This document shows, piece after piece, positions 41,275-64,000 of a DNA stretch of 64,000 nucleotides (its first letter is position 1; every line of letters starts with the position of its first letter). Under the pieces are notes generated by a model. The model saw only the letters and a program-made list of their open reading frames with translations, did not search any database and was not told the origin of the DNA. The position numbers were made by a program, and so were the translations under genes. Origin of the DNA: Eledone cirrhosa (lineage: Eukaryota). The DNA lies in contig OZ024741.1 of assembly GCA_964016885.1 (NCBI GenBank), positions 230,578,001 through 230,642,000 on the forward strand, in the 5' to 3' direction.

Positions 41275-42335
41275 TACACTCACGCACATTGACCCGCTTA
41301 CATGCACACACATAAAAATAAGAATGTAAAAAAACATAGATGTAAAAACACATATAAAAACACACATACATACACATGTATATATACACGCACGCGCGCG
41401 CACATACTGAGGCGTTCGTGTACATATACAGAAAATATACACACATAAAGACGCTCAGACACATAGATACAGGGTGTAAAGCAGCCTTATGAATAAGTGA
41501 GTACAAATATAAAAATATAAAATTGGCTGCGAAATAACAGAAAATATCTGGAGTGGAAAACGCAAGTGACTTTGTAATCAGGTAGTGAAGAAAATAGGGA
41601 AGTAAAAAGTGGAAAGTGAAGATATTAGGTAAGTGAATCGGAGAATAAAGGGAGGGGGGTGGTAGTGGTGGATGTGAAGTAAAAATAAAAATAAAAATAA
41701 AAATAAAAATAAAAATAAAAATAAAAATAAAAATAAAAATAAAAATAATAATGAGGTTAAAATTGAAAGTAAATAAAAAATGGTAGTCTTTAAAGAGTAT
41801 AATTTAAGTGAAGAATAAGAGCTTATGGAGGATAAGTATCTGAAAGTGTGTTAAGTTTATATGAGCTGGAAAGCAGGTGTGATTTCATGTGTGGGCAACT
41901 GGTAAAAATTTCTTTCTTTGTGTTTAGGCAGGTCTTTGGTGATTTAAGGTTTTGCAAAATCCAATATTTTTCATTTGTGCAGAGCGTGCATTTTCTTGAT
42001 CCTCTTGCATATTATTTAGATTGGTTCAAAATTGACCAATCCAATTTATATTGGATACCTTGGTCTTTCAAATCCCATATTCTGCTAGCCAGAGCTGTTG
42101 TGAATCTTTTTTCTGGATGTCGAAAGGATGCGACATGTGAGTAATAACGCGTTTTGAATTTGTCTTGCGTCATACCCACGTATCATTCACTGGTGGCTGG
42201 TTGGTTGTTGCTAATGGTTGTCACTTTAGCCGCATATACAATGGCTTTGATGTTGCATTTACCTTGTAATGGGCATTCACTTTTGATTCTACAGGAGCAA
42301 TGTTGATGTTCTCTAGGTGATTTTTTGTTGATGAT
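40297..42335 (-). mobile_element. PLE 3' fragment: GIY-YIG (41860-42330), UTR and pseudo-LTR with decayed hammerhead (40403-40472)
   Basis: CSCR.KSECPLQGKC..KAIVY.A.V, YVGMT..FKTRY..H..SF.H, CTLC..EK. (TA)n on both sides. Confidence 0.8.
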
Positions 42336-46999: not shown

Positions 47000-49900
47000 A
47001 TCATCATCATCATTATTTTACGTTCGCTTTTCCCTGCTTGCAAGGGTTGGACAGGTCCTGTTCAGCACAGCATCTCTCCACTTATCACGGTCCTTTGTCA
47101 TCTCCTCCGTGAGTCTTAGCGATCTGAGATCTGCACTCACCACCTCCGCCCATGTTTTTCGTGGTCTATCTCTACTGCGTCTTCCCTTCATTGGGACTTC
47201 CTGGCACTTCTTTACCCAGCGGTCATCCTCCATGCGCATCACATATCCATACCATCTCTGTCTTCTCTCCTGCACACCACAAATTATCCTTCTTATACTC
47301 AGTTTCTTTCTCAACTCGTCTATGCTTGACATTGCACATCCAACGGAGCATGCTTGCTTCATTTCTCTCCATCCGTCGCATATCCTCTGTAGTTGATGCC
47401 TATGTCTCACTACCATGCAGCATCGCGCATCTCACACAGGCATCATATAACCGACCTTTCGTACGCAGGGACAAACCCTTCTTTGTCAACAGAGGGAGCA
47501 GTTCCCTAAACTTCTTCCAACCCGTCCTTATTCTAGATAATATGGCCTCGGAACACCCCCTCCCATGCTAATCTTATCACCTAGGTACCGGAAGCTATCA
47601 ACCACTTCTATAGAAACCACCTGCATTGGAAAAATGTGTCTATCACTGCGATTACTACTGCCAACTTTCCCTGTACATCTACTGCATTCGTCGTTTTCCC
47701 TACCTGTTAGTTTGCCTGCTATCCCACTACATCCCTTGTGTACCCAAGATCTGCATTGCGCACATTTTATGGAATTTATGTCAGTTCCTTTCCTATATAT
47801 CTTATCGAACTTGGCCATTTCCCTGGTGGAATTAGAGTATTGTCCTCTCTTCTACTTATCAACACCTTTGTCATAGCTATATTAACTCTCAGTCCCCTTG
47901 ATTCCAACTGCTGGTTCTATAGCCAGAATTTCTCCTCTAGCTCCTCTACTGATTCTTCTATAAGAACCAGATCATCAGCATAGAGAAGTTCCCATGGGCA
48001 TCCAGTTTTAAACTCCTCTGTTATGGCTTGGAGGACTATAATGAACAAGAGCAGGCTGGGGACCGAACCTACTTGTATCTGGAATTCCTCATTACATTCC
48101 ATTCCTACTCTAACTTTACTGACAACACCCCTGTACATAGCTTGCACTGTCTTCACAAGCCATTCTTCTCCACCTAGTTTCTTTCGGGATCACCAAGTGA
48201 CAGATCGAGGTACCCTATCAAAGGCCTTCTCTAGGTCAACAAAAGCTAAGTATAGTGGCTAAGAACCTCTAAGAACCTCTCTTGTAGTTGCCTCACTAAG
48301 AAGAGGGCATATGTTGTACTTTTCCGAGGCACAAAACCAAACTGCATCTCATCTAATTTAACCCTTTCTCTTATCAGTTGCGCTAATATTCTCTCTGCCA
48401 CTTTCATAACCTGATCCATCAGCTTTATGCCCCTATAATTGCTCCTCTCCAGAGCATCCCCTTTACCTTTGTAGCAATTTATGAGAATACTGCTGCACCA
48501 GTTTTTGTGTATAACACCACCATATATAGCTTGATTGATAATGCGTGCAACCAGTTTAGTGCCTACTTCTCCTGATGCCTTCAGCATCTCAGCAACTATC
48601 TCCGATGGTCCAGCAGCCTCACCATTATTCATTTCCTTAATTGCCTCTTGTACCCTATATTCGTCAATCTCAATAGCTGGTCCCTCTTTCGGGTCTACTG
48701 GGGGTCTCCACATTCATCAGTCTCTCATAATGACATTTCCAGGCCTCCTTTATTTTATCATTCGTGACACTAAGTATACCAGCATCATTCCGGACACACT
48801 TATCACCAACAGCATCCTGATTTGCACTGACGCACTGCCTTGCAATGCGGAACACCCCACGTCTCTGATCTTCCCGTCGCAGAACACTGGCAAACCTCCT
48901 ACTCTCAGCCTCCCTGCGTGCTAATTACACCTGACGTCTAGCTTCTGTCTTAACGGTTGTGTATTCTTCTCTACTCCCCCCATTTTTCCAAGCCTTCCAT
49001 GCCAGTCTTTTGTCTCTAATGGCACTATCTACCGTGCTGTTCCACCACCAGGCCACTCTCTGTCTAGTTGAAGCTCTGCTCCCACCATAAATTTCTTCAG
49101 TAGCCTGCAGTAATTTGTCACGCAAGAAATTCCAGTTATCATCTGTCATACAACTCTAAATCGTCTTCTTTTTCGTCATACACATCTTGAAGGGCTTTGC
49201 TAAATTTATATTTTAATGAAAGGACTTTTAGCTTCTAGACCTTTCTTTTCCACACTTTCATGTATGTCTCATTCTTTCTCTTGCTTACTGAGCTGTCACT
49301 AACGACTAACCTATGCTGTGGGGTACATTCTTCCCCGGGTATGCCTTAGTATTTGACAGCATCTGTCTATCTCGCTGTCTAACTAGCAGGAAGTCAATTT
49401 TGCTTATGTGCTCGTCTGATTTGTAGGTTATTGGGTGGTTGGTAGGTTATTAGGTGGTTGGTAGGCTTCTGGAAGTGTTGCAAATGGTTAGTGTACTTGC
49501 ATCACAAAATTCAAGAAGCCTCACTCCTTCTTCATTTCTTGAGCCATAACCGTGCCCCCCATGTACCCCAGTGTATCCAACCTGGAGCTGTCCAACATGA
49601 CCATTGAAGTCCCCTGCTAGCATAACGATGTCTCTGTCCTCTGTCATTGAGGATGTCTGTAAAAGTTGCTCGTAAATACAGTCTTTCTCTTCTTTACCTA
49701 GGCCTACCTGGGGAGCATAGGCAGAGATGATTGTCAGTAGTCTCTTGCCTACAACTAATCTAAGCTTAATTATTCTATTACTAACTCTAACTACCTTTAT
49801 TGTCTTCTCTATCCATCTCTCAGCCAGTAATATGCCCACCCCACCTAACCCATCATCATTATCCACCCAGAAAAGCTTATAACTAAGATGTTTGCCTGTG

Positions 49901-50130
49901 ATTAGTCTTGAAGAGGCACCTCTCCATCTCACCTCTTGCGCACAGCATACATTCACACGCCTTCTCTCCAGCATCTCCGCTGTCTCACCAGATCTACCTG
50001 TTTGAGTGCCAACATTAAGTGTGGCAACTCGGAGATGCATGTATTGTCCCGTAACTCCTAATAGTGTAGTGCGGGTTCTTTATTGACCTACGGCGTTTCT
50101 CGGGCATTTTAAGCCTGGCGGTGCCCATCC
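47000..50130 (-). mobile_element. RTE-clade LINE, near full length (APE endonuclease plus RT), degenerate
   Basis: LRVATLNVGT, QEVRWRG, SAYAPQVG, GDFNGHVG, KGKGDALERSNYRGIKL, QFGF, ELLYADDLV, RRQRWYG. Confidence 0.95.
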
Positions 50131-50744: not shown

Positions 50745-53450
50745 ATATCACAAAAGAAACGGAGAATTACAATTGTTTCTCTGGCGACAAGCTCGAGGCA
50801 CGATCGATGTAATGATCGAACCTGACTCTGAAATCGCAAGATACTCAGATACGTCTTGATTCTTCGAAGCACAGTGTCCAAATGTCCAGTTACACCCTCG
50901 GCCTTCGCTTGCCAACTTTAAATCCTGTTGTTGTCTGTCGATGAGTGGTCAAGAATTGTACACGTCATCGGTATTTTTGACTACTCATGGCTGTCATTTA
51001 TTTGGTTCCTTTCGTATGTCACCTGTCAATCAAAGTTGTTTTTTATATTGGAAGGAGGTAAGGAGTTGGATTATTGAAACGCTCGCGCCCTGTCGCAGCC
51101 TTCCCGGCCTGTAGACGTCTACACCCATGTCCATGTTTCGCGCAGGCGTGATACATATGGGCACGTATGCACCCACAACAATCATATACACTCCCGCAAC
51201 TGTATTACATGCGACAATCACAGTAAATATTGAATGTGCACCGAATACTGAGAAACAATTTTTTTTAAATTTAAAAACATAAAAAAAAACGTTTCAGAAA
51301 AGCACACCCTCAAAATGCCTTTAAAAACACGCATTTCAAATTTAAAAAAAAACTTTTACAAAGAACATTTTTTTAAAAATGCTTGAAAGAGCCTTTCAAA
51401 AAAATTATTTCAAAAGTATTTTTGATAAATATACTTACGCATACACACACACACACACACACAGAACTCAGGAAAGCATATATACTTAAGAGGCAGCACA
51501 TACATACAGATGTATATACGGAAAATCTACACATATGCATACACCTACACAGACATGTTCATACACATAGACATGCATACACATGCATGTATACATATAT
51601 GCATGCATACACGTACATACGTGTACCCACGTATGGGTATGCTTTTACATCTCAAAAAGCACATACTTGATGAATACCTACATATCCACACACACACGCA
51701 ACTGTGCACATGGCGCATAAAATATTATATGAGAAAATATACTAATGACAGATAACATGGGGGGGGGGGGCACATATATGAATGCGTGTACGTGCATAAA
51801 ATAAAATAAAATATTTGAAAAAGAAGAAGAAGATGCAAACGAGGTAACTGTTCACGCCACCCGAACAATATCGGGATGTACATAAATTTGCATAAGATAC
51901 TTAAAGAATGTGGTGCATAGGGTTATATAAGATACAGAAGGACTGACGATCCAAGGGACTGGGTAAGAACCTACACATCAATCATGCACATGAGACAGAT
52001 TTCATGACAAGTGGACACAGGGGACCGTGTAGGTACACACAAACAAGTTATATATTGTGAATGTGTAGAATATCCTTTTTATAATAGTACATGGAATGGA
52101 TGCATAAATGGAATATATCGGGAATGTGTAGAATATGTTTCATAACAGTATATATGAAATGTGTGTGGAATGGATGCATAAGTGGAATATACCAACGGCT
52201 TGTGTTATAAGCATGTATATAGCAACGGCAGGCAAAGTTGGAATTAACTACAACATTAATCTTAAGTCCAGCATCAAGTTCAACATTAAAGTTGCAAATT
52301 AAACATCAAGAATCGAAAATTAAAAATTAAAAATCCAAAATTTAAATTCAAATTCAAAATCACAGATAAGGTTGTAAACAAAATCAGACTTATATTGAGT
52401 CGGCGTCCCCAAGTTGGTGCGACGGTGTTATCCAAGGTACGTGACGATGTAGCTATCGTTGGATCGGCCGCTGATTTCAGCTTGTTCCGACGTGCAATAG
52501 TTGGTATGCTTTGGCATGTCATGGTCCGCTGCAAGCGTCTCATCTGGCATTATCGAACTGGTAGGACCTTAGATAGACCCATCCGAGGCCATAGTATCTA
52601 GAATAAGGACGGATTGGAAGAAATTTAGGGAGTTGCTTCCTCTGTTGACAAAGAAGGGTTTATCTTTACGTACCTAAGGACGGTTATATGATGCCTGTGT
52701 GAGATGCGCGATTCTGCATGGTAGTTAGACATGGGCAGCAACTGCAGAGGATATGCGACGGCTAGAGAGAAATGAAGCAAGCATGCTACGTTGGATGTGC
52801 AATGTCAATGTACGTGAACGACCAAGCATAGATGAGTTGAGAAAGAAACTGTGTATAAGAGGGGTAAGTTGTGGTGTGCAGGAGAGAAGACTGAGATGGT
52901 ATGGACATGTGATGCGCATGGAGGACGACCGCTGGGTAAAGAAGTGCCAAGAAATCCCAGTAGAAGGAAGATGCGGTAGAGGAAGACCACGGGAAACATG
53001 GTCGGAGGTGCTGAAACTCACGGACGAGATGACAAAGGACCGTGACAAGTGGAGAGATGCTGTACTGAATAGGACCCGTCCGACCCTTGTAAGCAGGGAA
53101 AAGCGGAAGTAAAATGATGATGATGATGATGATGATATATAAGTGATATAATATACCGTCCGTTATATCATAACCGGAAGTATTGACATTTGAAAATCTT
53201 TTAAAGAAGTGAATCTTAAAATAGGCAATCATTATATATAAGAATATTTATGTTTAATCAACAGCTTCAAAATTTAGTACATAATATTCATGTAATATTC
53301 ATTCGTACCAGTGATGCACTGGCTAATTACTGGCCTTGTGCCTAAAGTAGAAACAATTATTTATTCAACTTATCCGACTTATTTTACTAACGGGATAAAA
53401 AAAAAATCTTCAGGATAGAGTTCCGCACTCCTCTCTTTATTATATTATAT
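50479..53450 (-). mobile_element. Helitron copy split by nested insertions
   Basis: 50479-50600 and 53170-53450 align to the two ends of 26547-27028. Confidence 0.65.
52610..53135 (+). mobile_element. RTE 3' fragment
   Basis: ORF 52753-53112 RRLERNEASMLRWMC...ERRLRWYGHVMR. (TGA)n tail. Confidence 0.9.
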
Positions 53451-55835: not shown

Positions 55836-56689
55836 AAGTCAGAAGGTTAAAATTAACTTCGATTATTCATAGTCGCTGTTATATATATTTTGGTGATAAC
55901 CGTTATGCAACAGCTATGACCACATGAGACAGCTAGAATTTGAATTGAAAAAAAAAACAGAAAAAAATAACGATGGAATAAAGTTTACTACTGCTGCTTC
56001 GATACTATAATATGCTCCGTGCTGAATTATGGTGTTTCCTTCTAAAGGCAGCTGTAGCATATATACGTATATATATATATATACAAAAAGTTATGAAACG
56101 AAAGGAGCTGTGTGGTTACTAAAAACAAGGTTTAGGATGGTGGTTAGGACGGAACAGGAGGAGAAAGGAAGAAAGGAGTTTCCATCGTCATCTGTAAATG
56201 TATCCCGAACCGATGTTTCGGCGCTGAATTACAGGACATCGGTATAGTTCGGGTGCGCTCGAGGCCTTTTATTAATCAAAAGGCCAGGTGGAAAAGGAGT
56301 GAGAAAGAGAGAAAAATAGGGAGAGAGGAAGAAGGGGAAAAATAGAAAAGGAATAGAAGAAAAAAGTGTGCAGATCCCATCATGGGAAGACACAGGTGAA
56401 AGAAACATGCAAAAAGGTAACCGTGGAAATATAGGGAAAGTAAGTTGTGGCCAACCTGGGAGACTTTAGCCTGGTGGTCAGCTACGACTCTGAGCTGGTA
56501 TGATCGTACTGCCTCTCGCATAGACAGGAGAAGGTGAGAGAGAGATTCGGGCAACCAAAAGTGAGGAGGAGAAGGGAATGGGAGATAATCGGGAACGTTT
56601 TTTTTACGACGGTTGTAAAAACGTGCCGCAAAAATTATATATATATATATATATATAGCGCGTCTAAATTTCCCGAGATCCATGGACGA

Positions 56690-57240
56690 GTTCTCTCCAG
56701 CGGACTCTGTTCCTCGTGATCACTGCCATGTCCTGCATCTCCAAGACACCAGTGTCTGTCCTTGGGGCATCAACATATGTCAACCTCGGTCTACCACTTC
56801 AAGGGCGTCGGTGCAGGGACTCAAACAGGAGCACCGAATGCAGTGTCAACTCTGGATATCGGTGAGCATGTCCAGCTAACTTCAGTCTCCTCTGTGCTAC
56901 TTTCGAGCTGACTTTTGGGAGGCTCCCGTACAGCTGTGAGATCTTCATCCTCAGTGTATACTGATTAATGTTCAGAGCCATGCTCAGCAGTCTCGTGTAG
57001 CATCCATCCACCATCTGAGTGATTTCTTGGTCAGTGTCCAAGTCTCAAACCCGTGCAGCAGCACATACTCAACTGCAGCAACCAAGAGAGGGATCTTCAA
57101 GTTTCTACGATGGTCCGACTTCCACACCGCTCTCAGAGTGTGGCACACCTCCCAAGCTTTGCTCTTCCTCTCAACCACATCATCTTCTGTATTCCCAATC
57201 TTTGGTCCCAGATACAGGAAGTCCTGAACCGATTATAGCG
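56690..57240 (-). mobile_element. RTE-X-like LINE 3' fragment
   Basis: AAVEYVLLHGFETWTLT, DGCYTRLL.MALN, LYGSLPKVSSKV.QRRLKLAGH. Confidence 0.85.
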
Positions 57241-57259
57241 GCTTCTCGCTATATATATA

Positions 57260-57317
<58 letters not shown>

Positions 57318-57319
<2 letters not shown>

Positions 57320-60300
57320 TGTATATATAGTGTATATTGAAATACATTGTATGCTTAATTAAAAGCATTTCGAAGACCTTACGCTATTGTTTTAGAGTAG
57401 TGACAGTCTCACTTACTTTAAATGTTCATCAAACAGGAGAGATAAAGCTGACAGAGCTCTGTTTCATACTGATTGGTACTTATCAAAGCCAAGTACTCTA
57501 CCTGTTTGCTGAAAATCATGAATGTTTGATTCTTATAGAATTCTAGTAATAATCAGGAACTGATTATACAGAGCGTTTACAGGTCAAGCAGAAATTGAAA
57601 ATAGGAATTGGTGTTCTGAAATAGCAATATATATATGAATGTATATATAGAGTATTTTGCAATACACTGTATGCTTACTTAAAAGCAATAGCGTAAGGTG
57701 TTCGAAATGCTTTTAATTAAGCATACATTGTATTGCAAAATACACTATAGACACATTCATATATATATCGCTATTTTAGAGCACCAATTCCAATTTTCAA
57801 TTTCTGCTTGACCAGCAACCGCTCTGTATAATCAGTTCCTGATTATTACTAGAATTCTATAAGTATCAAACACTCATGATTTTCAGCAAAAAGATGGAGT
57901 ATATGGGTAATAAGTACCAATCAGTACGAAACAGAGGTCTGTCAGCTTTATCTACCCTGTTTGCTAAACAATTAAAGTAAGTGAGACTGTCACTACTCTA
58001 AAACAATAGCGTAGGGTCTTCGAAATGATTTTAATTAAGCATACAGTGTATTGCAAAATACACTATATATACATTCATATATATATCGCTATTTCAGAGC
58101 ACGAATTCCAATTTATAATTTCTGCTTGAGCGGCAACCTCTCTGTATAATCTGTTCCTGATTATTACTAGAATTCTATAAGAATCAAACATTCATGTTTT
58201 TCAGCAAACAGGCGGAATACTTGGCTTTGATAAGTACCAATCAGTACGAAACACAACACTGTCAGATTTATCTCCCCTGTTTGCTGAAAATTTAAAGTAA
58301 GTGAGACTGTCACTACTCTAAAACAATAGCGTAAGGTCTTCGAAATGCTTTTAATTAAGCATGCAGTGTTATGCAAAATACACTATATATACATTCATAT
58401 ATATATATCGTTACTTAAGAGCACGAATTACAATTTTCAAATTTTTACTTGACCGGCAACCGCTCTGTATAATCAGTTCCTGATTATTAGTAGCATTCTA
58501 TGAGAATCAAACATTCATGATTTTCAGCAAACAATTGGAGTACTTGGCTTTAATAAGTACCAATCAGACCGAAAATAGTTCTGTCAGCTTTATCTCCGCT
58601 TTTTGCTGAAAATATAAATAAGTGAGACTGTCACTACTCTAAAACAATAGCGTAAGATCTTCGAAATGCTTTTAATTAAGCATACAGTGTATTGCAAAAT
58701 ACACTATATATACATCCATATATATATCGCTATTTCAGCGCACTAATTCCAATTTTCAATTACTGCTTGACCGGCAACCGCTCTGTATTATCAGTTCCTG
58801 ATTATTACTAGAATTCTCTAAGAATCAAACATTCATGATTTCCAGCAAACAAGTGGATAACTTGGTTTGATAAGTTCCAATCAGTAAGAAACAGAACTGT
58901 GTCAGCTTTAATCCCCTGTTTGCTGAAAATTTAAATTAAGTGAGACTGTCACTATCCTAAAACAATAGCGTAGGGTCTTCGAAATGCTTTTAATTAAGCA
59001 TGAAGTTCGTTATTTTAGAGCATCTGTTCCAATTTTAAATTTCGGCTTGACCGGCAACCGCTCTGTATATTCAGTTCCTGATTATTACGAGAATTCTATA
59101 AGAATCAAACATTCATGATTTTCAGCTAACAGGTGCAGTACTTGGCTTTGATATGTACCAATCAGTATGAAACAGAGCTCTGTCAGCTTTATCTCTCCTG
59201 TTTGATGAAAATTTAAAGTAAGTGAGACTGTCACTACACTAAAACATTATTGTAAGTTCCTCAAAATATTATTAATTCAGCATAGAGTCTATTGCAAAAT
59301 ACAATATATATATATTCATATTTATATCGTTATTTCAGAGCACCACTTCCAATTTTCAATTTCTGATTGACCGGCAACCGCTCTGTATAATCAGTTCCTG
59401 ATTATTACTAGAATTCTATAAGAAGCAATCATTCATGATTTTCAGCAATCAGGTGGTGTACTTGGCTTTGATAAGTGCCAATCAGTACGAAACAGAGCTC
59501 TGTCAGCTTTATCTCCCCTGTTTGCTGAAAATTAAAATTAAGTGAGACTGTCACTACTCAAAAACAATAATGTAAGGTCTTCGAAATATCTTTATTAAGC
59601 ATAAAGTGTATTGCAAAATACAATATATATATATTCATATATATATCGCTATTTTAGAGCACCAATTCCAATTTTCAATTTCTGCTTGACCGGCAACCGC
59701 TCTGTATAATCAGTTCCTGATTATTACTAGAATCAAACATTCATGATTTTCAGCAAACAGGTTCAGTACTTGGATTTGATAAGTTCCAATGAGTACGAAA
59801 TAGAAAACTGTTAGCTTTATCTCCCCCGTTTGCTGAAAATGTAACGTAAAAATGAGACTATCACTACTCTAAAACTATAGCGTAATGTCTTCGAAATGCT
59901 TTTAATTAAGCATACAGTGTATTGCAAAATACACTATATATATATATTAATATATATAGCGCTATTTCAGAGCACCGGTTCCAATTTTCAATTTCTGCTT
60001 GACCGGCAACCGTTTTGTATAATCAGTTTCTGGTATTACTAGAATTCTATAAGAATCAAACATTCATGATTTTCAGCAAACAGGTGGTGTACTTGGCTTT
60101 GATAAATATCAATCAGTACGAAACAGAGCTCGGTCAGCTTTATCTCCCGTGTGTGTGGAAAATTAAAATTAAGTGAGACTGTCACTACTCAAAAACAATA
60201 GCGTAAGGTCTTCGAAATATCTACAAATAAGCATACAGTGTATTGTAAAATACATTATATATACATTCATTAATATATATCGCAATTTCAGAGCACAAAT

Positions 60301-63300
60301 TAAGTGAGACTGTCACTACTCTAAAACAATAGCGTAAGGTCTTAGAAACATCTTTTAAGTAAGCATACAGTGCATTGCAAAATACACTATATATACATAC
60401 ATATATATATCGTTATATTGGAGCACCAATTCCAATTTAAAGTAAGTGAGACTCTTACTACTCTAAAACAATAGCGTAAGTTGTTCGAAATGTTTTAATT
60501 AAGCATACAATGTATTGCAAAATACACTATATATACATTTATATATATATCGTTATATTAGAGCAGTAATTCAAATTATCAATTTCTGCTTGACCGGAAC
60601 GGTTCTGTATAATCAGTTCCTGATTATTACTAGAATTCTATAAGAAACAAATATTCCTGATTTTCAGCAAACGGGTGGAGTACTTGGCTTTGATAAGTAC
60701 CAATCAGTACGAAACAGAGCTCTGTCAGCTTTATCTCCCCTCATTGCTGAAAATTAAAATTAAGTGAAACTGTCACTACTCTAAAACAATAGCGTAAGGT
60801 CTTCGAAATATCTTTAAGTAAGCATACAGTGTATTGTAAAATACACTATATATACTTCCATATATGTATCGTTATTTTAGAGCATCCATTCCAATTTTCA
60901 ATTTCTTCTTGACCGGCAACCGCTCTATCTAATCAGTTCCTTATTATTACTTGAATTCTATAAGAATCAAACATTCACGATTTTCAGCAGACAGTTCGTG
61001 TACTTGGCTTTGATAAGAATCAATTAGTACGAAACAGAGCACTGTTAGCTTTATATCCCCTGATTGCTGAAAATTGAAAGTAACTGAGACTGTCACTACT
61101 CTAAAACAATAGCGTAAAGTCTTGGAAATGCTTCTATTTAAGCATACAGTGTATTGCAACATACACTATATATACATTCATATATATATCGCTATCTCTG
61201 AGCACCAATGCCAATTTCAATTACTGCTTGACAGGCAGCCGCTCTGTGTAATCAGTTCCTGATTATTACTAGAATTCTATAAGAATCAAACATTCATGAT
61301 TTTCAGCGAACAGGTGGAGTACTTGGCCGTGATATGTACCAATCAGTACGAAACAGAACTCTGTCAGCTTTATCTCCCCTGTTTGCAGAAAAATTGAAAG
61401 TAAGTGAGACTGTCACTACTCTAAAACAATAGCATAAGGTCTTCCAAATGCTTTTAATTAAGCATACAGTGTATTGCAAAATACACTATATATACATTCA
61501 TATATATATCGCTATTTCAGAGCACCAATTCCAATTTTCAATTTCTGCTCGACCGGCGACCGCTCTGTATAATCTGTTCCTGATTATTACTAGAATTCTA
61601 TAAGAATCAAACATTCATAATTTTCAGGAAATAGGTTGAGTACTTGGCTTTGATATCTACCAATCAGTACGAAACACCATTCTGTCAGCTAAATGTCACT
61701 GTTTGCTGAAAATTTCAAGTAAGTGAGTCTGACACTACTCTAAAACAATAGCGTAATGACTACGAAATGCTTTTAATTGAACATACAGTGTATTGCAAAA
61801 TACACTATATATACATTCGTATATATATCGCTATTTCAGACAACTAATTCCAATTTACAATTTCTGTTTGACCGGCGACCGCTCTGTATTATCAGATCCT
61901 GAGTATTACTAGAATTCTATAAGAATCAAACATTCATGATTTTCAGCAAACAGGTTGAGTACTTGGCTTAGATAAGTACCAATCAGTACGAAACAGAGCG
62001 TGGTCAGCTTTATCTCCCCTGTTTGCTGAAAATTGAAAGTAAGTGAGACTGTCACTACTCTAAAACAATAGCATAAGGTCTTCGAAATTCTTTTAATTAA
62101 GCATACACTGTATTGCAAAATACCCTATATATACATACATATATCTATCGATATTTCAGAGCACCAATTCCAATTTTCATTTCCTGCTTGACCGGCGACC
62201 GCTCTGTATAATCAGATCCTGATTATTACTAGAATTCTATAAGAATCAAAGATTCATGATTTTCAGCAATCAGGTGGAGTATTTGGCTTTGATAAGTACC
62301 TATCAGTTCGAAACAGAGCTCTGTCAGCTTTATCTCCCCTGTTTGCTGCACATTTAAAGTAAGTGAGACTGTCACTACTCTAAAACAATAGCGTAAAGTT
62401 TTCGAAATGCTTTTATTTAAGCATACATTGTATTGCAAAATACACTATATATACATTCATATATATATCGCTATTTCAGAGCACCAATTCCAATTTTCAA
62501 TTTCTGCTTGACCGGCGACCGTTCTGTATAATCTGTTGCTGATTATTACTAGAATTCTATAAGAATCAAAGATTCATGATTTTTTGCAAACAAGTGGAGT
62601 ACTTGGCTCTAATAAGTACCAATCAGTACGAAATAGTGTTCTGTCAGTTTTATCTCCCCTGCTTGCTGAAAATTGAAAGTAAGTGAGACTGTCACTACTC
62701 TAAAACAATAGCGCAAAGTATTCTAAATGCTTTCAATTATGCATACAGTGTATTGCAAAATACATTATATATACATTCATTTGTATATTGCTATTTCAGA
62801 GCACCAATTCCAATTTTTAATTTCTGCTTGACCGGCGATCGCTCTGTATAATCAGTTCCTGATTATTATTAGAATTCTATAAGAATCAAATATTCATAAT
62901 TTCAGCAATCAGTTGCAGTACTTGGCTTTGATAAGTACCTATCAGTTCGAGTCAGAGCTCTGTCCGCTTTATCTCCCCTGTTTGCTGAACATTTCAAGTA
63001 AGTGAGTCTGTCACTACTCTAAAACAATAGCGTAAGGTCTTAGAAATGATTTTAATTAAGCATACAGTGTATTCCAATATACACTATATATACATTCATA
63101 TATATATCGCAATTTCAGAGCAGCAATTCCTATTTTCAATTTCTGCTTGACCGACAACCGCTCTGTATAATCAGTTCCTGATTGTTACTAGAATTCTATA
63201 AGAATCAATATTCACGATTTTCAGAAAATAGGTGGAGTACTTGGCTTTGATAATTCCCAATCAGTAAGATACAAAGATCTGTCAGTTTATCTGCCCTGTT

Positions 63301-64000
63301 TGCTGACAAATTTAAAGTAAGTGAGATTGATACTACTCTAAAACAAGAGCGTAAGGTCTTCGAAATGCTTTTAATTAAGAATACAGTGTATTGTAAAATA
63401 CACTATATATACATTCATATATCTATATCGCTATTTCAGAGCACCGATTCCAATTTTTTATTTCTGCTTGTCCGGCCACCGCTCTGTATAATCAGTTCCT
63501 GATTATTACTAGAATTTTATAAGGATAAAACATTCATAATTTTCAGAAAACAGGTGCAGTACTTGGCTTTGATACGGACCAATAAGTAGGAAACAGAGCT
63601 CTGTCAGCTTTATCTCCCCTGTTTGCTGAAAAATTTAAAGTTAGTGAGACTGTCACTACTCTAAAACAATAGCTTAAGGATTTCGAAATGCTTTTAATTA
63701 AGCATACAGTGTATTGCAAAATACACTATATATACATTCATATATATATATCGCTATTTCAGAGCAGCAATTCCAATTTTCAATTTCTGCTTGACCGTCA
63801 AACGTCCTGTATAATCAGTTTCTGATTATTACTAGAATTCTATAAGACCCAAATATTCATGATTTTCAGCAAACAGTTGGAGTACTTTGGCTCTTATAAG
63901 TACCAATCAGTACGAAATAGTGTCTGTCAGCTTTATCTCCCCTTTTTGCTGATAATTTAAAGTAAGTGAGACTGTCACTACTCTAAAACTATAGCGTAAT
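57318..64000 (+). repeat. ~320-bp tandem array with one type I hammerhead per full-length unit (retrozyme-like); first unit inverted; runs off the window end
   Basis: Period 320 (for example 61909 to 62229). 19 plus-strand and 1 minus-strand HHR-bearing segments counted by eye. Confidence 0.95.
60661..60753 (+). ncRNA. Best-preserved array hammerhead (U3:A8 variant); predicted cleavage after C60726
   Basis: ttttcagcaa...ggagtactt-ggct-TTGATAA-gtac(caatca)gtac-GAAAC-agagctct-GTC-agct-ttatctcc...ttgctgaaaa. Confidence 0.85.

What the first reader, a model, noticed from the sequence alone, without database searches (positions are those of the whole stretch)
60686..60730. Array hammerhead has a compensatory U3:A8 core (UUGAUAA instead of CUGAUGA)
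Seen: the unit consensus core is TTGATAA, with both C3 to U and G8 to A, while U4, G5, A6, A9, GAAA and GUC are retained. Established: C3 and G8 form a Watson-Crick tertiary pair in the active hammerhead fold, and U3:A8 can substitute. Inference: the double change argues for selection on catalysis in the family ancestor, and strict CUGANGA searches would miss this family.
Basis: partly seen in the sequence, partly recalled or inferred. Interest (0 to 1): 0.8.

Follow-up and report, generated by a model that had tools for sequence, protein, structure and literature searches.

The report
Retrozyme hammerhead with swapped core pair
A 320-base mobile repeat carries a predicted self-cutting hammerhead RNA whose central C-G pair is replaced by U-A; sister copies keep C-G, which likely reflects selection for cutting, but this swap is already known in nature.

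Summary
Observation confirmed. Bases 60686-60730 are an intact type I hammerhead with U3 (60690) and A8 (60695); 28 of 32 scored array units are U3:A8 and none is C3:G8. The ~320-bp unit is a non-LTR retrozyme family with over 1,000 dispersed copies. They end in (TA)n and often sit head-to-head, like two Penelope-like families in the same genome. The same family has C3:G8 subfamilies (90 and ~270 matches), while mismatched 3:8 copies are scattered (22 of 1,385). Subfamilies also swap pairs 10.1:11.1, 10.2:11.2 and stem pairs, so selection on the fold in source lineages is well supported. Limits: the 3:8 swap is one event and its direction is unresolved; C3:G8 may be a reversion. The window's array is decayed (3 of 32 units fully intact), with no core conservation after insertion. 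Natural U3:A8 is published (Perreault 2011; ~1,300 schistosome hits, Cervera 2014). New lead: folding predicts C3 would strengthen an inactive helix by ~3 kcal/mol, and the C3:G8 subfamilies carry changes that relieve it. Cleavage and expression were not tested.

The parts
60686..60730 (+). Minimal type I hammerhead of one array unit; one of only 3 of 32 scored units with core and all three stems intact
60690..60696 (+). Core strand with U3 (60690) and A8 (60695) in place of C3 and G8; U4, G5, A6, A9 canonical
60697..60710 (+). Stem II (4 bp, G10.1:C11.1) with a 6-nt loop
60711..60726 (+). G12-A13-A14, palindromic 12-nt helix III (4 bp plus AGCU loop) and C17; predicted cut between 60726 and 60727
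   Evidence: cut site from the established hammerhead numbering
60661..60753 (+). Extended stem I with internal loop (60681-60685 / 60731-60734) and long closing stem that isolates the ribozyme
57688..64000 (+). Plus arm of the tandem array of ~320-bp retrozyme units; it continues ~4.8 kb past the window and ends in (AT)n
57315..57687 (-). Inverted 5'-truncated arm, head-to-head with the array, with one U3:A8 hammerhead (about 57421-57516); boundaries approximate, read from the sequence
57250..57329 (.). (TA)n microsatellite joined to the 3' end of the inverted arm (inferred target site)
60297..60577 (+). Two ~140-bp partial units without a ribozyme inside the array

Best explanation
This is a unit of a non-coding, non-LTR retrozyme family whose type I hammerhead has a U3:A8 core pair that is likely functional, kept by selection in the source copies that were multiplying. 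Shown: hammerhead anatomy; dispersed and tandem copies; fixed 3' ends into (TA)n; variable 5' ends and head-to-head arms; a C3:G8 sister clade; several further compensatory swaps; neutral decay of inserted copies. Inferred, in order: tandem transcripts would self-cleave at C17 into ~320-nt monomers (possibly as a two-unit 'double' hammerhead through the palindromic helix III); the monomers would be circularised; a Penelope-like reverse transcriptase/endonuclease, likely of the Hydra clade, would prime at a (TA)n nick and copy round the circle, giving multimers up to this ~11.5-kb array. After insertion the copies decay, so this array is mostly a fossil.
For: Genome-wide 3:8 states with the family's stem II: U:A 1,273 (by subtraction), C:G 90, C:A 10, U:G 12 of 1,385. 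A second C3:G8 subfamily with A10.1:U11.1 has 294 matches; 93 of the first 100 listed are C:G, 5 U:G and 2 C:A. In 77 copies sampled without regard to the core: U:A 52, C:G 20, other 5. On 42 natural copies, 10 of 27 pairs change on both sides, including 3:8 (UA 25, CG 12), 10.1:11.1 (AU 5), 10.2:11.2 (CG 5) and stem I 2.2:1.2 (UA 5); 0 of 500 shuffles reach the covariation score, and slid controls are far lower (related sequences inflate this). U4, G5, A6, A9, G12, A13, A14, A15.1, U16.1 and C17 do not differ among six subfamily majority rows, while 33 of 98 local columns do. Insertion pattern: 74 of 98 5' ends abut an inverted arm, and 50 of 98 3' ends fall on two modal positions running into (AT)n. 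One private variant is shared by 28 of 32 array units, including the inverted arm's side of the sample, against 1 of 87 dispersed copies, as expected from a single template. Two Penelope-like families end in (TA)n the same way. Their ORFs show DKT and CxCx5C motifs, which Craig et al. give for Hydra, and Atlas neighbours carry GIY-YIG/RVT_1 in a minority of members.
Against: The 3:8 swap is a single event on the tree, so the large counts are not independent. Both changes from C:G to U:A are GC-to-AT transitions, which an AT-rich genome favours (own knowledge). Core columns are no better kept than others after insertion: 41/1,057 vs 749/17,807 in dispersed copies and 43/457 vs 670/9,815 in the array. 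5' ends do not pile up at the cut site (3 of 98, two loci). The hammerhead fold is predicted ~3.2 kcal/mol above the ensemble for the window's subfamily, without tertiary contacts. The zero-change result for core columns is only P ~0.02 against the local rate and ~0.2 against the whole-unit rate (9 columns, worked by hand rates). The unit shares no sequence with either Penelope-like family beyond AT repeats, and Pfam gave no family for their ORFs. A published pairwise scan found low activity for every core double mutant except G3:C8.
Confidence: 0.75

Rival explanations
1. The hammerhead is dead or nearly so. U3 and A8 came from two AT-biased transitions, and the repeat spreads as a Penelope-mobilised or satellite sequence that needs the hairpins but not cleavage.
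For: One 3:8 event only; no core conservation after insertion; no excess of 5' ends at the cut site; inactive MFE; low activity of non-G3:C8 core doubles in one scan.
Against: No mismatched subfamily was found amplified. Unpaired catalytic bases stay fixed across subfamilies while paired ones swap together. An independent Penelope-like family in this genome also uses U3:A8 (83 of the first 100 listed of 2,527 matches). Perreault et al. cite in vitro activity of covaried 3:8 pairs.
Confidence: 0.12
2. The ribozyme works, but the template for new insertions is an uncleaved or partly cleaved linear multimer transcribed from a genomic array, not a circle. The large array then grew mainly by unequal exchange.
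For: Insertions run through the cut site. The array has at least one later internal duplication (units at 61537 and window-equivalent 64419 share 23 of 30 changes) and slightly more sharing between near neighbours. Li et al. discuss local tandem amplification.
Against: Apart from that pair, array units decay almost independently from one template (mean 21 changes each, about 2 shared). The array has the same (AT)n ends and inverted arm as small insertions.
Confidence: 0.25
3. The array itself is kept by the host for its ribozymes (a regulatory or structural RNA under present-day selection).
For: Its size, about 11.5 kb.
Against: 13 of 32 units keep an intact core and 3 of 32 keep core plus stems. 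Core positions mutate at least as often as others.
Confidence: 0.03

Closest known systems
Metazoan non-LTR retrozymes (Cervera and de la Pena 2020, PMC7229834; Li et al. 2026, 10.64898/2026.07.22.740005)
   Same: Type I hammerhead in each unit of a ~300-bp, low-GC, non-coding tandem repeat; monomers to large multimers; co-occurs with Penelope-like elements.
   Different: The dominant core is U3:A8, with a within-family switch to C3:G8. Insertions end in (TA)n with inverted arms. No pLTR homology to the two Penelope-like families examined. Circular RNA was not tested here.
U3-A8 minimal hammerheads of Schistosoma mansoni Penelope-like (Cercyon) elements (Cervera and de la Pena 2014, PMC4209133)
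   Same: Same core covariation, in about 1,300 hits, tied to Penelope-like elements.
   Different: Those are described as minimal, mostly single motifs. This one is a full hammerhead with 4-bp helices II and III and an extended stem I, in a tandem retrozyme.
Natural core variants in Perreault et al. 2011 (PMC3088659)
   Same: U3 and A8 covary in several natural hammerheads.
   Different: There they are reported as rare. Here U3:A8 matches (at least 3,800) are about as many as C3:G8 matches (about 3,200), though the patterns differ slightly.
Hydra-clade Penelope-like elements (Craig et al. 2021, 10.1101/2021.04.23.441226)
   Same: (TA)n insertion, tandem/inverted 5'-truncated copies, two alternative 3' ends, hammerheads.
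   Different: The retrozyme has no ORF. The Hydra-like elements are the candidate helpers, not the element itself.

Membership tests
Type I hammerhead ribozyme | Three helices round the junction, stem I open-ended | tested here: met
Type I hammerhead ribozyme | U4, G5, A6, A9, G12, A13, A14, A15.1:U16.1, H17 conserved | tested here: met
Type I hammerhead ribozyme | Watson-Crick pair between positions 3 and 8 | tested here: met
   U:A here, C:G in sister subfamilies
Type I hammerhead ribozyme | Literal C3 and G8 (strict CUGANGA) | tested here: not met
   published work accepts U3:A8 as a natural variant, so this does not exclude membership
Type I hammerhead ribozyme | Loop 1-loop 2 tertiary contact | tested here: inconclusive
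   Internal loop in stem I and 5-6-nt loop II are present; the contact itself was not modelled
Type I hammerhead ribozyme | Site-specific self-cleavage | not testable with these tools
   needs an assay
Rfam hammerhead families | Gathering score | tested here: not met
   best HH9 17 bits vs 52; two C3:G8 sister loci also gave no hammerhead match at E up to 1, so the miss is not due to U3:A8
Non-LTR retrozyme | Type I hammerhead in 150-450-bp low-GC tandem units | tested here: met
   definition
Non-LTR retrozyme | No coding capacity or LTR | tested here: met
   only one 82-aa stop-to-stop frame in the array; no LTR-like ends
Non-LTR retrozyme | Dispersed copies from monomers to multimers | tested here: met
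Non-LTR retrozyme | Expressed as linear and circular RNA | not testable with these tools
   no RNA holder was listed, which is no evidence either way
Penelope-like element (autonomous) | ORF with RT and GIY-YIG endonuclease | tested here: not met
   such ORFs lie in other families of the genome
pLTR-derived non-autonomous Penelope-like element | Sequence homology to a pLTR | tested here: inconclusive
   none to the two families compared; other families were not examined

The most novel reading that the evidence does not exclude
The identity of the catalytic 3:8 pair is set by folding competition with the palindromic helix III. With C3, the strand entering the core becomes a perfect copy of helix III's 3' half and traps an inactive helix. 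U3:A8 is the escape, and the lineage that holds C3:G8 could do so only with changes in loop III and stem I. The family would be a natural, dated epistasis series (3:8, 10.1:11.1, 10.2:11.2, loop III) for a ribozyme core, including a reversion to the canonical pair.
Probability: 0.3. Interest if true: 0.55.

Novelty: new member of a known kind. Interest (0 to 1): 0.32.

Why it matters
The core variant and the element type are both known, so the finding as written is not a discovery. Its value is threefold. (1) It is a within-family natural test of the 3:8 pair, with both states and their neighbours present in one genome. (2) U3:A8 cores are about as common as canonical ones in this genome, so CUGANGA-only counts would miss roughly half. 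(3) The shared (TA)n ends and inverted arms point to Hydra-like Penelope elements as helpers. The predicted link between the core pair and a competing helix can be tested with a few short RNAs.

Tried and rejected
Rfam at gathering score: nothing; E-value mode gave only weak HH9 and AT-repeat miRNA matches. RNA evidence: no RNA holder was listed; no evidence either way. Pile-up of 5' ends at the cut site as a trace of cleavage: not found (3 of 98; negative labels in that output are unit positions minus 321). Outgroup to root the family: one metagenome scan gave 2 records that do not continue into the unit. Relative ages of subfamilies overlap (0.028-0.047), so they do not give the direction of the swap. 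pLTR homology to the two Penelope-like families: none. Pfam and PDB did not name their ORFs. The misfold idea did not clearly extend to the two Penelope hammerheads: MFE changed by 0.1 and 1.0 kcal/mol on swapping. Earlier scan notes: none found. Primary kinetic papers (Przybilski and Hammann 2007; Nelson and Uhlenbeck 2008; Martick and Scott 2006) were not held, so no U3:A8 rate is quoted. Supplements of the cited papers were not read; the eLife data files may hold the actual U3:A8 value, and retrozyme supplements may already list this family.

Full report
OBSERVATION. The window is part of a 3.0-Gb genome. From about 57.3 kb to past its end lies a tandem array of ~320-bp units. Bases 60686-60730 form a type I hammerhead with U3 at 60690, A8 at 60695 and C17 at 60726. 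In the window, 15 of 19 plus-strand units have U3 and 19 of 19 have A8. In the full array, 28 of 32 scored units are U:A and none is C:G; 2 partial units were left out. The 30-base motif occurs 381 times exactly in the genome, with 0 for the reversed control and 0 for its C3:G8 version.

WHAT THE ELEMENT IS. The unit is dispersed over many contigs; a 30-base stretch outside the ribozyme has 1,470 exact matches. I mapped ends in 70 loci chosen by that stretch. Of 98 arm ends, 74 5' ends abut an inverted arm, and 50 3' ends fall on two modal positions about 148 and 168-174 bases after the cut site, running into (AT)n (same picture). The window's array has this layout too: (TA)n, a short inverted arm, then the long arm, which ends in (AT)n about 11.5 kb on. 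Craig et al. describe tandem/inverted 5'-truncated insertions and a tail as typical of Penelope-like elements, and (TA)n targeting, DKT, CxCx5C and hammerheads for the Hydra clade (passages read). The genome holds two such families. One has a C3:G8 hammerhead and makes up most of the first 100 listed of 2,963 canonical matches. The other has U3:A8 and makes up 83 of the first 100 listed of 2,527 matches. Their ORFs are 54% identical over 334 residues, and both end in (TA)n at two positions. The Hydra label is my motif reading; Pfam gave no family, and Atlas neighbours carry HTH_animal, GIY-YIG or RVT_1 in part of their members. The retrozyme unit shares no sequence with them, so helper status is inferred from insertion pattern only. 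Size, GC content and arrangement match the non-LTR retrozymes of Cervera and de la Pena 2020 (passages read) and Li et al. 2026 (parts 1-3 of 5 read).

IS THE PAIR COMPENSATORY? Yes, within this very family. With the family's stem II, 1,385 matches split into U:A 1,273 (by subtraction), C:G 90, C:A 10 and U:G 12. The C:G copies are 81-87% identical to the window's unit over the aligned stretches. A further C3:G8 subfamily also swaps G10.1:C11.1 to A:U (294 matches; 93 of the first 100 listed are C:G). Another U3:A8 subfamily swaps 10.2:11.2. The mismatched copies are spread over different subfamilies at about 0.5-5%, as single-copy decay would give. On 42 natural copies (the window's unit plus 5-6 drawn per subfamily), 10 of 27 pairs change on both sides, 94% of cells pair, and no shuffle or slid structure reaches the covariation score. 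Related rows inflate this, and 18 of 500 shuffles reach the pair count. Unpaired catalytic bases do not differ among subfamily majority rows, although 33 of 98 local columns do. That call also counted 10.1 and 11.1 as unchanged because it had not yet split the A:U subfamily (split); for the remaining 9 columns the chance is about 0.02 against the local rate and 0.2 against the whole unit (hand calculation).

WHAT IS NOT SHOWN. The 3:8 swap happened once. In a tree of nine subfamily majority rows, the two C3:G8 rows group together (bootstrap 100) beside one U3:A8 row (94; 95 without positions 3, 7 and 8). Read from the branch lengths, a midpoint root would make C3:G8 derived, that is, a reversion. 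But the ages overlap (C3:G8 0.037 and 0.045; nearest U3:A8 0.041; window's subfamily 0.028) and no outgroup was found. I put reversion at about 60%. Selection does not act on inserted copies. Core and non-core columns decay alike in dispersed copies (3.9% vs 4.2%), and the core is no better kept in the array (9.4% vs 6.8%). Only 13 of 32 array units keep the core and 3 keep core plus stems, the flagged unit among them, against 53 and 39 of 77 dispersed copies. 5' ends show no excess at the cut site. The array stems from one template (a variant in 28 of 32 units vs 1 of 87 dispersed copies), then mostly independent decay and at least one later duplication.

A MECHANISTIC LEAD. ViennaRNA's best fold pairs the strand entering the core with the 5' half of the palindromic helix III, an inactive form. 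Setting C3:G8 in any of the six U3:A8 backgrounds widens the gap to the active fold by 2.4-3.0 kcal/mol. The AGAU loop carried by both C3:G8 subfamilies narrows it by 2.3-3.6 kcal/mol in their own backgrounds. In the nearest U3:A8 background given C3:G8, that loop change ranks 4th of 198 single substitutions for relief, and a stem I change also found in these subfamilies ranks 7th. With about 7 shared changes, two in the top 7 has a rough chance of 0.02, computed by hand and after the fact. This is one event, ignores tertiary contacts and dimers, and did not clearly carry over to the Penelope hammerheads. It is a hypothesis.

COMPARISON WITH WHAT IS KNOWN. Perreault et al. 2011 report natural U3/A8 covariation and cite earlier in vitro activity (passages read). 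Cervera and de la Pena 2014 found about 1,300 U3-A8 hits in S. mansoni with a dedicated descriptor (passages and first quarter read). The eLife 2023 pairwise scan found only the G:C swap rescued activity at this pair in its hammerhead (passages read). PMC7151607 was seen in one passage and added nothing. Searches for this family in print gave nothing specific: hammerhead+retrozymes+octopus, hammerhead+cephalopod+genome+satellite, U3A8, U3-A8, 'U3 A8' and C3U+G8A. The taxon words were my guess from genome size and repeats, not a result. The library omits most subscription papers, and supplements were not read.

VERDICT. The feature is real. It is most likely a functional hammerhead variant in the source copies of a retrozyme family (0.75), while this array is largely decayed. 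The variant and the element type are known, so this is a new member of a known kind. Interest 0.32, raised a little by the within-family series of compensatory swaps and the testable folding-competition idea.

Noticed in passing
L160:1694-4420; L161; L159 (G000:C1): Autonomous-type Penelope-like family (Hydra-like motifs) with a U3:A8 minimal hammerhead at its 3' end, probably about 2,000 copies; a second, apparently independent U3:A8 lineage in this genome.
   Followed up: partly
L064:3011-5596 (-); L061; L062: Sister Penelope-like family with C3:G8 hammerhead and an 862-residue open frame, also ending in (TA)n at two positions.
   Followed up: partly
L277-L306: Retrozyme subfamily with A10.1:U11.1 in place of the usually conserved G10.1:C11.1, 294 matches.
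   Followed up: partly
unit positions about +45 to +170 after the cut site, e.g. window 60770-60895: The part outside the ribozyme differs less among subfamilies (18 of 222 columns) than the ribozyme region (33 of 98) and folds into short hairpins; it may hold the helper-recognition or promoter signal.
   Followed up: no
L166 (G000:C1:82389000-82397500): A second long tandem array of the same family, from the subfamily with the 10.2:11.2 swap, also more diverged than dispersed copies.
   Followed up: partly
window 56660-57240 (-), 49450-50079 (-), 52729-53112 (+): Broken fragments that look like LINE (RTE-type, recalled label) reverse transcriptase and endonuclease; the first abuts the (TA)n at the array's left end and is probably unrelated to it (no Pfam hit for the 81-residue piece tested).
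   Followed up: partly
L057:3011, L058:2050 (-), L046:1279 (-): Further hammerhead-like C3:G8 motifs with different flanks, probably other families.
   Followed up: no
window 41680-41752: Near-perfect (TAAAAA)12 tandem run.
   Followed up: no
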